Shown here: piece by piece, positions 4,329-59,960 of the stretch
Layout: the number at the start of each line of letters is the position of its first letter
Position numbering within the stretch: the first letter of the stretch is position 1
Assembly: GCF_006345805.1 (NCBI RefSeq)
Contig: NC_042998.1
Location: 75,888,001-75,952,000, forward strand
Direction: 5' to 3'
Source of the DNA: Octopus sinensis
Lineage: Eukaryota
Length of the DNA stretch: 64,000 bases
Translations under genes and position numbers: made by a program
Notes under the pieces: generated by a model
Databases searched by the model: none
What the model saw: only the letters and a program-made list of their open reading frames with translations
Told to the model about the DNA's origin: nothing

Positions 4329-4417
4329 TTTCATTCTACACGTGTTTCGAAAGGCACAAATTACCAAAATCCGATTGAATAATGGGACCATATTGTGTCT
4401 TTCTCTTCAGGAAGAAA
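4329..4417 (-). ncRNA. Type I hammerhead ribozyme motif (mirror arm)
   Basis: Reverse complement of the motif at 5326-5414. Confidence 0.75.
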
Positions 4418-5095
4418 AAAGGAAATCCGTTAGAGAAACAAAAACAGAACAGAGGCGGAGCAAAAACCAAATCGAACTATGCTCCTAAGAGCCCATGGCG
4501 AAACTGTTTATCAGTGTATGCTGAGAACCGGTGGCTGAAGAATTCTACAGGTCAGGCATCGGTCAATCATGTGGGTGAGGGTGTATAGATGTTCTTAGTG
4601 ACCGAGAATAAGTTCTGACTATTTAAGGAATATTGGATGTTTTATAAGGGGCGAGAAAAAATCTACTTAGAGACGTGTGTGTGTGTATACTGTTCTATAT
4701 ATGTGTGTGTTGGCGTAGGGGTAGAAAACACTTTTTGTGTACGTGTGTGCGTTTGATCGTTCGGCTGTCAGTGGCTACTGCCGTGATAACCGTTGGGTGG
4801 CAGAAAGAAAAAAATATATATATATTATGTATTATGTGTGTGTGTGTTCATCTGAGCCTGCGGGGGGTTTCCTTGACAAGGCAGGCTCAGATGAACACAC
4901 ACACACATAATACATAATATATATATATTTTTTTCTTTCTGCCACCCAACGGTTATCACGGCAGTAGCCACTGACAGCCGAACGATCAAACGCACACACG
5001 TACACAAAAAGTGTTTTCTACCCCTACGCCAACACACACATATATAGAACAGTATACACACACACACGTCTCTAAGTAGATTTTTTCTCGCCCCT

Positions 5096-5130
5096 TATAA
5101 AACATCCAATATTCCTTAAATAGTCAGAAC
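5096..5130 (+). promoter_or_regulatory. Putative Pol II core promoter of the element (TATAAAA plus Inr-like agTCAGaa 28 nt downstream)
   Basis: Same TATAAAA..agtcagaa arrangement recurs at 24706-24741 in a different Penelope pseudo-LTR. Confidence 0.5.
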
Positions 5131-5325
5131 TTTATTCTCGGTCACTAAGAATATCTATACACCCTCACCCACATGATTTACCGATGCCTGACCTGTAGAA
5201 TTCTTCAGCCACCGGTTCTCAGCATACACTGATAAACAGTTTCGCCATGGGCTCTTAGGAGCATAGTTCGATTTGGTTTTTGCTCCGCCTCTGTTCTGTT
5301 TTTGTTTCTCTAACGGATTTCCTTT

Positions 5326-5414
5326 TTTCTTCCTGAAGAGAAAGACACAATATGGTCCCATTATTCAATCGGATTTTGGTAATTTGTGCCTTTCGAAACA
5401 CGTGTAGAATGAAA
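5326..5414 (+). ncRNA. Type I hammerhead ribozyme motif
   Basis: ttc-CTGAAGA-gaaagacacaa..ttgtgcctttc-GAA-ACACGTGT-A-gaa: intact core, long stem II, palindromic stem III, GUA cleavage triplet. Confidence 0.75.
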
Positions 5415-5938
5415 TAAAACGATTTCTGTTCAATCTGCGTTCAGCTCCATTTCTTCAATTCACCAATAATGTTTTATATATATATATATTATATATATAT
5501 ATATATATATATATATATATATATGCGGTTATGCATGTACACATTTAGTATTCAAGAAATATATTTTGTAGAATTACATTTATGTAAAGATGCTTCAGTA
5601 GAATTATTTTCGTAACAAAGGCATATATATCGGAGTATATCTATAAGTATATGTTTAATATATGCACGGGGGTGATAAATTTGATACTCCACTTAATTGC
5701 ATTAGTGATCCGTCTGTTAATGTTTCATTATTTTAAGTATGAAATAATCCAGACTAACATGTGTTACTATGTGTGTGTGTGCGTGTGTATACGCGCCTAT
5801 GTGAATATATATGTGTGTGTATGTATGTATGTATGTATGTACGTATGTATGTATGTATGTATGTATATATATATATATATATATATATATTATATATATA
5901 TATATATATATATATATATATATATATATATATATATA

Positions 5939-6547
5939 GGTATCAAGTTAAATGGCTTTAATACCTCTAAGGGATAATTAAATCCAGAGTCGCTCCTGGC
6001 TATTAGCTGGGTAGGTACAGTCTTTTGTAAGGTTGTACGGTAGCAAGTGGCTCGGTTGGTAAACCGGAGTTTGGGTTATATAGGAGAATAAAAAGATTAT
6101 GTATAAGGGAAGTAAGTAGTTCTGGATTTGGTGCAACTAGGGAAGATATAGATCTGTAATGTGAATGGTGTATGGGATGGAAGGGGGTTAGTTGTATTAA
6201 TTTAAAGGTTAGTATTGTTCAAACAGAAATATCACTCCGTCGAAGAACCACTCTCCACAAAGAACAAATCCGCCACCCACAATACAGATAGATACAGGTT
6301 AGGAACACATAGAAAGGTGTGCTAGGAATCTTAATCCTAATTTCCTAATTTTCCCCTTCTATCAATGTTCACAGAACACCTCAGTACAACAAAGTATGAA
6401 TAAAGAGGCAACTTTCATCAATAAATATCTTCCACAACTCAATATGAACACATAACATAATACAGAACACTACTAACCTTTCAATTAATACCACTAACCC
6501 CCATACATCCCATACACCATTCACATTACAGATCTATATCTACCCAG
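5939..6547 (+). mobile_element. Penelope-like element remnant: GIY-YIG C-terminus with inverted pseudo-LTR
   Basis: 6220-6455 reads QTEISLRRRTTLHKEQIRHPQYR..EHIERCA..IFPFYQC..KEATFINKYLPQLN; 6137-6220 is an inverted copy of 6465-6547. Confidence 0.75.
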
Positions 6548-7409
6548 TAAATATTGGAGCATTGTTGTACCACTATCCTATATTTATATATATATATATA
6601 TATATATATATATATATTTTACTTTTTCAGTCATTTGACTGCGGCCATACTAGGGCACCGCGTTGAAGAGTTTTGAGGCCTGACAACAACGGCACCACAT
6701 AAGATGCAAGACCAAACACACTCTCTAGAAAGCCTCCTTCTCCCTTTCTCTCTCTCTCCCTCTCTCTATCTATCTATCTCTCATTCTCTCTCTCTCTCCC
6801 TCTCTCTCTCTCCCTCTCTCACTCCCTCTCTCTCTCTCTCTCTCTCTTTCTCTCTCTCTCTCTCTTACATAACTAACCTTTTAAATTCTATTACTCCAGC
6901 ATTGAAACTATAATACTTATATAGTGCTAGCAGTTTATCTATTCATATTTTATATGAGAAACCGTATGAAGCATTTCAGAACAATTTATTTTAAATAGTG
7001 TTTACATCATTTTTACACACTTAGCCATGAGCCATCAACCTATATCTTTTAAGGTATGAAAATCATAGAAATGTATATGCTAACCACGGACGATAACTCG
7101 GTTGCAAGAAATTTGATTTATTTCACTTCAATACCGCCGTAAGTTTTAAGATATATACTTCTTCAATCATGGAATTATCATGCACATGACAGGAAATATC
7201 ATTCCAGATGGCTTATTGTAAATAGTGAAGAGATGGGTTTGCCAGAATATTCAATGTGTTAGTAAATATTAATTATTGTTATTAATATAATTTTGCAATT
7301 CTGCTTGGTGTAGCTTTAAAGGATGAAACATTTATTCATCTTATACTTCAATGCATTAAATTACTCTATTCAGTTTTGAGTTCTTACCTCATTAATGACA
7401 TAACTTATG

Positions 7410-57950: not shown

Positions 57951-58214
57951 AGAGTGAGAAAGAAAGAACATAGTCAACACATGAACATTTTCACACCAGA
58001 GTCTTCTCTCTGCTCCTATCTTCCCTGCGGATAATGATCTGCAATAATTTAAACAGAGATTTATGGTATCAAGCTCACTGATCTCGCGGAACCCACAAAA
58101 ATCGTGAGTAGCATGTCTTCCTTGAGACTTAGCAAGTAATGAAAATGTGTATACATTTAGACAATAGTACATGCGTCTACATAAATAGTGTAAGCATGTA
58201 CAGAGATAGTATAT

Positions 58215-58660
58215 TGTCATGAACGCTGAGGGTGTCTTAGCATTACTCAGAAAGACCTTTATCAGCCGCTCTCCAGCTATTATTTTAAATTTGTATATGA
58301 CTATAGTACTATCCATACTTAGAGTTTGCATCTCTAGTCTAGAACCGCTATCTTGCTCAGCATATCAATCTCCTGGAACCGTTCAGAAATGTGCAACCAA
58401 ACGAATACCCGCTGTTAAGCATCTACCATACTTCCCTGGTCATGGGCACGTTAAAGCCCCATCTGGTAACTGACTCGGTACACACTCACAAGATTATCCA
58501 ACATGTTTCCAAAAACAGCCTTCGGCACCTTTTTGAATTCCGTAGGTCTAACAATCGTAAACATGCTTACAAGATCAAAAAACAGCACAGCACCCATGAC
58601 TTCGTGTGCATATTCTATGTTCTGTTCGTACAGCTTTAGTTACCTTTTCTGAAGAGTTGC
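58215..58660 (+). mobile_element. CR1-like ORF2 C-terminal fragment
   Basis: LALLRKTFISRSPAIILNLYMTIV..VQKCATKRIPAVKHLPY..THKIIQH..RKHAYKIKKQ. Confidence 0.7.
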
Positions 58661-58904
58661 AACTGGACACTGTATGCAATAAGTTCGTGATTATTATTAT
58701 TGTTGTTGTTATTGTTGTTATTATTATTATTATTATTATTCCTATTATTATTATCATATACATGACAACACATGTATATTTAAAACAGTTTATGTGTATA
58801 TACAATAGTATATTTCTCTCACATAATAGTATATTTCTATACGTAACAGTGCATCTGTATACAAAACAGTATACATATATAGAATTGTATATGCATTAGG
58901 TGAT

Positions 58905-59048
58905 TACATCAACCCCAGTACTCAACTGGTACTTTACTGAGCCCGAAACGAAATTCCTCGGCGGAATTTGAGCTCAAAGCACAAAGATGGCTGAAATGTC
59001 ACTAAGTATTTTATCTGGCGCTGTAACTACTTTGCCAGATCAACGCCT
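58905..59048 (-). mobile_element. SINE family M fragment
   Basis: ccccagtactcaactggtact..cctcggcggaatttgagctca. Confidence 0.7.
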
Positions 59049-59387
59049 TGCGTGCACGCATAATAACATATAAGTATTTAAGCAAGGACACTTAGATAAA
59101 ATAATAGTACATGCTAATACGTAATTGCACAAGCATACACATAAATAATGCATGCATACATATGATAGTGCTTATATACACATTAATAGTACATTTACTT
59201 ACATAATAGTATAATGCAAAAATTGGTAGTACATATGTATAAAAATTCGTGTGTATGTGTGTGTATATATATATATATATATATATATATATATATATAT
59301 ATATATATATATATATATATATATAGATATATATATAAAGAAGTTTGAAAACGCCACTATATAAGATAAATTTTAATTTTCTTAGAA

Positions 59388-59435
59388 ATTTTACATGTTT
59401 CGGTTCTTCTTGAAAAAACGAACCTTATCAAAAAT
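59388..59435 (-). ncRNA. Hammerhead with U3:A8 core in a Penelope pseudo-LTR fragment (59335-59530)
   Basis: attt-TTGATAA-ggttc..gaacc-GAA-ACATGT-A-aaat; flank resembles 16811-16870. Confidence 0.75.
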
Positions 59436-59774
59436 ATTTCTAAAAGTAAAGTGTAATAAAAAAGTTCATAATTGTTTCTTACTGGTCTCAACAGAATCCA
59501 CGTGGTTGTTTTTAGCTGCCTTATGTGTCTGAATGACCAGTGGCTGAAATGGCAGTAGCAGCAGTGACTGTTGGTCGTAGTAGTAGTAACCGTGGTGGAG
59601 GTGGTTGGGGTTGCAGCAGCTCATTGGTTGTAGCAGCTTAGCTGTGGCAGTAGCAGTAGTAGTGGTAGTGGAAGACTGTTGATCGTAGTAGTAATAGTAG
59701 TGACCATGGTGGTTGTATATATATATAATATATATATATAATATATATATATATATATATATATATATATACAT

Positions 59775-59960
59775 TATGATCGAAAAATAAAGAAAACACC
59801 AAAACGAGTTGAATGAACACAAACAGGATGTATTAGGTTGATGCCTAGCTAAAATGGAAAAAGTCTTTAATGTTTCGAGTCTACGCTCTTCTACAGAAAT
59901 GATAGGCGAGGAGTGAGAATAAGAAACGTGTCTGAGATAAACGCTCAAAGTATGCTCAAA
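59775..59960 (-). mobile_element. Family B hammerhead repeat (motif 59865-59900), decayed
   Basis: ttt-CTGTAGA-agagcgtagactc-GAA-ACAT-T-aaag. Confidence 0.5.

What the first reader, a model, noticed from the sequence alone, without database searches (positions are those of the whole stretch)
4329..59900. About 18 minimal type I hammerhead motifs in roughly ten families within 64 kb
Seen at 4329(-), 5326(+), 9775(-), 10044(+), 16190(-), 16872(-), 22976(-), 23463(+), 24779(+), 32019(+), 34911(+), 39109(-), 41995(+), 43103(-), 44097(+), 48229(-), 59388(-), 59865(-), plus half motifs near 18490, 55790, 56155 and 57205. Most families share no flanking sequence yet keep the stem I-CUGANGA-stem II-GAAA-stem III-UH topology; several copies are visibly decayed. 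Established: such hammerheads mark Penelope-like elements and animal non-LTR retrozymes. Inference: one motif per ~3.5 kb, if typical, implies a very large unannotated ribozyme-retroelement ecosystem in this genome, dependent on the GIY-YIG Penelope elements whose remnants lie at 6220, 18003 and 23985.
Basis: partly seen in the sequence, partly recalled or inferred. Interest (0 to 1): 0.85.

Follow-up and report, generated by a model that had tools for sequence, protein, structure and literature searches.

The report
Penelope hammerheads with altered catalytic core
The hammerhead-shaped motifs are real, and those traced are mostly the 3' ends of Penelope-like retrotransposons, plus one retrozyme repeat; the commonest family has a U in place of a normally conserved catalytic A, which would either still cut RNA or serve a non-cutting role.

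Summary
Observation largely confirmed, interpretation partly. 17 of the 18 listed loci have hammerhead anatomy; a relaxed descriptor finds 11 in the window against 0.1 in shuffles. Only 7 of the 18 have an intact canonical core and stems. The rest are U3-A8 variants (3), A6U variants (3), decayed (4) or unverified (1). The window is about 5 times richer than 48 stretches sampled elsewhere (15 per 480 kb), so 'one per 3.5 kb' is not typical; I estimate roughly 0.5-2 x 10^5 per genome. Families A, B and C are 3' pseudo-LTR ends of Penelope-like elements (PLEs) that carry their own RT-endonuclease. Family F is a 353-bp tandem retrozyme. All this is a known kind of system. The unexpected part is family B, about 38,600 copies, whose core reads CUGUNGA. 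Only 140 of 13,792 exact copies have A6. U6 persists through subfamilies that changed the two free positions, and sits in both pLTRs of a PLE with an open 1009-aa frame. I found no report of a natural A6U core, but a key paper was unavailable. Cleavage is untested.

The parts
4119..5476 (.). Family A insertion 1: head-to-head palindrome of two 5'-truncated 3' ends of a Hydra-like PLE, in (TA)n; extra ~150-nt tail on the left arm only
4334..4413 (-). Family A hammerhead, canonical core, stem III palindrome CACGUG
5330..5409 (+). Family A hammerhead
6214..6443 (+). Broken GIY-YIG C-terminus of a PLE; no hammerhead found beside it
   Evidence: E 2e-12 to family C protein
9775..9816 (-). Family D hammerhead, canonical core; family has 14,343 matches; parent not found
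10044..10085 (+). Family D hammerhead, decayed (C3U); divergent partner of the 9813- copy
15798..15887 (+).
   Evidence: relative in L155
16063..16284 (-). Family B 5'-truncated PLE end with A6U hammerhead (core starts at 16221)
   Evidence: 83% to the L178 pLTR
16812..18573 (-). Family C insertion: GIY-YIG end (18003-18479), ~1.1-kb 3' UTR, U3-A8 hammerhead (16872-16915), inverted half-hammerhead piece at 18488-18573
22809..23188 (-). Family F retrozyme: 380-bp more-than-unit copy of a 353-bp tandem unit, between (TA)n runs; type I hammerhead with extended stem I at 22976-23020
23452..23500 (+).
23954..24155 (+). Probable frameshifted GIY-YIG C-terminus
   Evidence: weak (E 0.1-0.3); Pfam did not name it
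24779..24823 (+). Family H hammerhead, U3-A8 core, U-U at the base of stem II
32014..32050 (+). Family B2 hammerhead (A6, triloop sister of B), decayed U4C; 3,956 exact family matches
34911..35012 (+). Family I hammerhead, long loop II, decayed stems
38963..39558 (-). Family J element with 117-bp terminal direct repeats (retrozyme-like, arrays not tested); canonical hammerhead at 39105-39163
   Evidence: relative in L033
41995..42047 (+). Family K hammerhead, canonical core, weak stem II, inside a rearranged insertion (about 41470-42230)
   Evidence: relatives in L143, L144
43041..44396 (.). Family A insertion 2: palindrome (557-nt arms, 100%), hammerheads at 43108-43187 (-) and 44101-44180 (+), tail on the right arm only
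48155..48280 (-). Family B end, A6U hammerhead with damaged stem II (core starts at 48260)
57150..57278 (+). 3' half of a family I motif
59388..59435 (-). Family C2 hammerhead, U3-A8 core, related to family C
59742..59904 (-). Family B end, A6U hammerhead, decayed (core starts at 59896)

Best explanation
The motifs traced here are hammerheads in the 3' pseudo-LTRs of Penelope-like retrotransposons, likely scattered by 5'-truncated insertion into TA repeats, plus one 353-bp retrozyme likely moved by PLE enzymes; the largest family carries a fixed A6U core that is likely kept by selection. Shown: in full-length copies one hammerhead lies in each of two direct repeats that flank the RT-GIY-YIG frame (families B, C); short copies share the 3' end and vary at the 5' end; many carry an inverted 5' piece. 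Inferred from published PLE biology: the upstream pLTR drives a transcript holding two hammerheads; their palindromic stems III pair to form a dimer that cleaves slowly after UH; the endonuclease nicks (TA)n; reverse transcription starts 100-250 nt downstream of the hammerhead and usually aborts early, so hammerheads far outnumber coding frames; fold-back or template switching gives the head-to-head palindromes. Most genomic copies would be inert passengers. For family B, I infer that the fold is needed for transposition; I put useful cleavage by the A6U core at about 0.4.
For: Shuffles: 8 vs 0.08 and 11 vs 0.1. Family C: motif 0.87-1.1 kb behind the GIY-YIG stop in 29 of 30 loci; L096 has 1.67-kb direct repeats (99.3%), each with the motif, around a 781-aa RT + GIY-YIG frame. 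Family B: L178 has ~780-bp direct repeats (96%), each with the A6U motif, around an open 1009-aa frame that is 27% identical to the family C protein (E 6e-81); 150 of 150 scored endonuclease matches are 97-100% identical; short copies mostly end 110-140 nt after the core in (TA)n. Family A: the arm continues upstream into a frame with RT and endonuclease motifs; 20 of the first 31 listed matches lie in divergent pairs within 4 kb. Family F: arrays of 3-6 units spaced 350-356 bp in 4 of 4 fetched loci (chosen because the listing showed arrays), 42% GC, longest frame 66 codons. A6U: 140 of 13,792 exact copies have A6; on a tree of 3' flanks (43 of 45 loci) A6 copies are scattered (11 changes vs 12.5 shuffled) while N7 marks subfamilies (7 vs 22.6); 13 of 13 copies found by flank alone that reach the core have U6 (17 found); G at position 17 occurs in only 100 copies; the triloop sister family keeps A6 (3,956 vs 75). 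One stem I pair occurs as C-G, G-C and A-U across B and B2. Literature: PMC4209133 (min-HHRs in pLTRs, mostly single, some as opposite-strand pairs, U3-A8 variant), PMC8557442 (inverted 5' copy, one-sided tail, (TA)n targets), PMC7229834 (retrozyme definition).
Against: No cleavage or expression data. Parents were traced for only 3 families (plus a weak link for H); D, B2, E, I, C2, J and K could be non-autonomous. Within-family covariation is thin: 2 of 11 pairs change on both sides, and the outermost stem I pair is unpaired in 26 of 38 rows (rows are related and were picked by a motif pattern). Of 11 monomers folded, most do not beat shuffles (z from -2.7 to +0.9; 3 below -2), which is expected for dimer-dependent motifs but gives no support. 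Family C has only a 1-2-bp stem I next to the core. The family A parent got no Pfam hit; its assignment rests on motifs and atlas leads. A6 changes are reported to cut activity sharply (PMC3088659, section 8).
Confidence: 0.87

Rival explanations
1. One reading: most motifs belong to non-autonomous retrozymes that borrow PLE enzymes, at one per 3.5 kb across the genome.
For: Family F is a true tandem retrozyme; J and K show terminal redundancy of more than one unit; parents of D (14,343 matches) and B2 are unknown.
Against: A, B and C (42,781 of the 61,837 counted matches) continue into their own RT-endonuclease frames; none of 45 family B loci showed a tandem second copy of the motif (one short inverted piece); sampled density is 1 per 21-32 kb.
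Confidence: 0.08
2. Family B's A6U motif is a dead hammerhead: a founder mutation that hitch-hiked in a successful lineage, kept, if at all, as a protein-binding or dimerisation element or a DNA-level signal. (This concerns family B only and is compatible with the PLE-end origin.)
For: Mutations at A6 lower activity; a natural A6C variant cleaves below 0.1 per min (PMC3088659). PLE min-HHRs are slow even when canonical (PMC4209133), and Naiad PLEs spread without canonical hammerheads (PMC8557442).
Against: Across subfamilies whose 3' flanks average 72-83% identity to the N7U group, the subfamily-level changes seen in the motif are at N7 and H17, the two positions a hammerhead leaves free, and no G17 subfamily exists. 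That shows selection on the fold, not on chemistry.
Confidence: 0.5
3. The motifs are chance matches in AT-rich, repeat-rich DNA.
For: One listed motif (23463) and two half motifs could not be verified; shuffles of 36 sampled stretches gave 0, 0, 0, 3 and 0 hits.
Against: 11 vs 0.1 in shuffles; reversed-pattern controls gave 0 in every genome pattern search; position in pLTRs.
Confidence: 0.02

Closest known systems
Minimal type I hammerheads (min-HHR) of Penelope-like elements (Cervera and De la Pena 2014, PMC4209133)
   Same: Type I topology, palindromic short stem III, extra base after A9, position in pLTRs, many families per genome, mostly solitary copies, opposite-strand pairs, U3-A8 variant.
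   Different: Counts there were about 2,000-9,000 per genome; here 61,837 pattern matches for six families (different method, larger genome). Their consensus is CUGANGAH; a search of their alignment file for CUGU gave 3 places, none in a core (supplement file 1 not searchable).
Neptune-type EN+ PLEs (PMC8557442)
   Same: Families B and C: DKG motif, RT with YIDD/YLDD, CX2-5CxxC linker, C-terminal GIY-YIG with CCHH, (TA)n targets, pLTRs.
   Different: Family C has a separate 479-aa upstream frame overlapping the RT frame, whereas canonical EN+ PLEs are described as single-ORF. Neptune versus Nematis was not resolved by a tree.
Hydra-clade PLEs (PMC8557442, section 11)
   Same: Family A parent: DKT for DKG, RW-type N-terminal motif, no CCHH, CxxC and CxH near the C-terminus, (TA)n targets, canonical hammerhead.
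   Different: CxCX5C linker is degenerate and the endonuclease is preceded by a long low-complexity insert; no tree made.
Animal non-LTR retrozymes (PMC7229834; bioRxiv 10.64898/2026.07.22.740005)
   Same: Family F: 353-bp tandem units, GC under 45%, one type I hammerhead per unit, no long frame, coexisting with PLEs; mussel units are 350-390 bp.
   Different: Circular RNA not shown here; inserts in (TA)n, with inverted 5' copies beside arrays in 3 of 4 fetched loci.
Natural hammerhead core variants (Perreault et al. 2011, PMC3088659)
   Same: U3-A8 and a position 6 change (A6C in a phage) are known, with low but detectable activity for A6C.
   Different: A6U is not named in section 8; there the variants are rare, here it is the majority state of a ~38,600-copy family.

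Membership tests
Type I minimal hammerhead | Core CUGANGA / GAAA / UH | tested here: met
   8 window loci, strict descriptor; families A, D, E, F, J
Type I minimal hammerhead | A at position 6 (family B) | tested here: not met
   140 of 13,792 exact copies; family B is filed as hammerhead-like variant, not as a proven hammerhead
Type I minimal hammerhead | Stems I and II pair; stem III short and palindromic | tested here: met
   11 vs 0.1 shuffled
Type I minimal hammerhead | Compensatory changes in stems | tested here: inconclusive
   B+B2 alignment: one stem I pair C-G/G-C/A-U, score reached by 2 of 500 shuffles, but rows are related and 2 of 11 pairs only
Type I minimal hammerhead | Self-cleavage after UH (as a dimer) | not testable with these tools
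   only contigs were available
Penelope-like element (EN+) | RT plus C-terminal GIY-YIG in one frame | tested here: met
   L096 781 aa: RVT_1 E 1e-6, GIY-YIG E 3e-6; L178 1009 aa; family A parent by motifs only
Penelope-like element (EN+) | Direct pseudo-LTRs each with a hammerhead | tested here: met
   L096 and L178; not shown for family A
Penelope-like element (EN+) | 5' truncation, inverted 5' copy, one-sided tail, (TA)n target | tested here: met
Neptune clade | CX2-5CxxC linker and CCHH; phylogenetic placement | tested here: inconclusive
   motifs present in B and C proteins; no reference tree
Hydra clade | DKT, RWK, no CCHH, CxCX5C linker, placement | tested here: inconclusive
   DKT, RW and loss of CCHH seen; linker degenerate; no reference tree
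Non-LTR retrozyme | Tandem 150-450-bp non-coding units, one type I hammerhead each (family F) | tested here: met
Non-LTR retrozyme | Tandem units (family B) | tested here: not met
   no tandem second motif in 45 family B loci; A and C also continue into PLE frames
Non-LTR retrozyme | Accumulates as circular RNA | not testable with these tools
   no raw reads listed

The most novel reading that the evidence does not exclude
Family B is an active natural hammerhead class with a CUGUNGA core, missed by CUGANGA descriptors, in which the A6U change is compensated (by the linked GUAG loop II, the dimer fold or the PLE protein). It is the commonest ribozyme motif counted in this genome and processes the RNA of a recently mobile PLE.
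Probability: 0.33. Interest if true: 0.72.

Novelty: new variant of a known kind. Interest (0 to 1): 0.5.

Why it matters
What PLE hammerheads do is still called unclear (PMC8557442). Family B offers a natural experiment: a recently amplified PLE whose hammerhead has U at a catalytic-core position, with an A6 sister family and 140 natural A6 copies as controls. If it cleaves, the hammerhead consensus widens and descriptor-based counts miss the largest family here. If it does not, while the fold is conserved, PLE hammerheads have a non-catalytic role. The genome also gives intact PLE frames and a 353-bp retrozyme for tests of mobilisation in trans.

Tried and rejected
Rfam scan of the window: the best 150 of 239 matches are microsatellite hits, nearly all to miRNA models; the other 89 were not shown, so I make no claim on Rfam hammerhead models. 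DNA search of the own genome with family A found nothing because common words are skipped; a pattern search later gave 3,472. The repeat finder was swamped by microsatellites except for the inverted list. Sequencing runs: no RNA holder listed; 20 of 24 rows hold the family F stretch, all as contigs. Laying 4 contig sets on L060: no molecule ends; position 6 was not among the rows shown, so conservation of U6 in other organisms is untested; the depth peak over the core is a contig-graph effect that I do not count. Monomer folding is uninformative for dimer-dependent motifs. Distance to (TA)n in the window: 12 of 19 motifs within 260 nt against a 34% background; suggestive only. The identity table crashed after the first row, so only N7U comparisons are quoted. 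Pfam gave nothing for the family A parent. Literature searches for A6U and for hammerheads or retrozymes in cephalopods showed no relevant report in their listings. Lunse et al. 2017 is not held; I saw only its title in a reference list. Earlier scan notes: nothing. Rejected: reading A6U and U3-A8 as decay; reading family A as a fixed-length non-autonomous unit (it continues upstream).
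Full report
Setting. The window is G000:C2:75888001-75952000 of a 2.72-Gb genome, AT-rich, with 16% masked as simple repeats. The repeat landscape looks like that of an octopus; this is recalled, not tested.

Noticed in passing
L096:2173-5873 and L098:3238-6938: The young family C PLE has two overlapping frames (479 aa, then 781-aa RT-endonuclease in another frame, overlap near a T6 run), unlike the single ORF described for canonical EN+ PLEs; a frameshift is possible.
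   Followed up: partly
   Followed up: partly
window 17286-17760: Imperfect ~100-nt tandem repeats in the 3' UTR of family C; copy number seems to set the 0.87-1.1 kb spacing to the hammerhead.
   Followed up: no
window 30118-30880: 227-nt inverted arms (99%) around a (TA)n run, related to dispersed repeats at 24955-25269, 33044-33118 and 40998-41293; no hammerhead found.
   Followed up: no
window 62970-63542 (+); 8593-8919, 38453-38773, 54464-54904: RT fragment (RVT_1 E 3e-6); three fragments that look like Tc1/mariner transposase (recalled; Pfam gave no transposase hit).
   Followed up: no
L135:5252-6462 (+): A second Hydra-like PLE with a clear CxCX5C linker, just downstream of a family A end.
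   Followed up: no
L157:4514 (+), L157:5267 (-), L046:8748 (+), L174 near 2480 (+): Further hammerhead families not present in the window, one with a U3-A8 core near a PLE RT-endonuclease remnant (L046).
   Followed up: no
L033:6529, 7016, 7504 (-): About 487-bp tandem repeat with a hammerhead-like match carrying C at position 6 and a weak stem III; may be chance.
   Followed up: no
L097:6589/7876, L099:2538, L060:988-1608: Elements of different hammerhead families often sit next to each other in the same (TA)n runs, which may explain local clustering such as this window.
   Followed up: no
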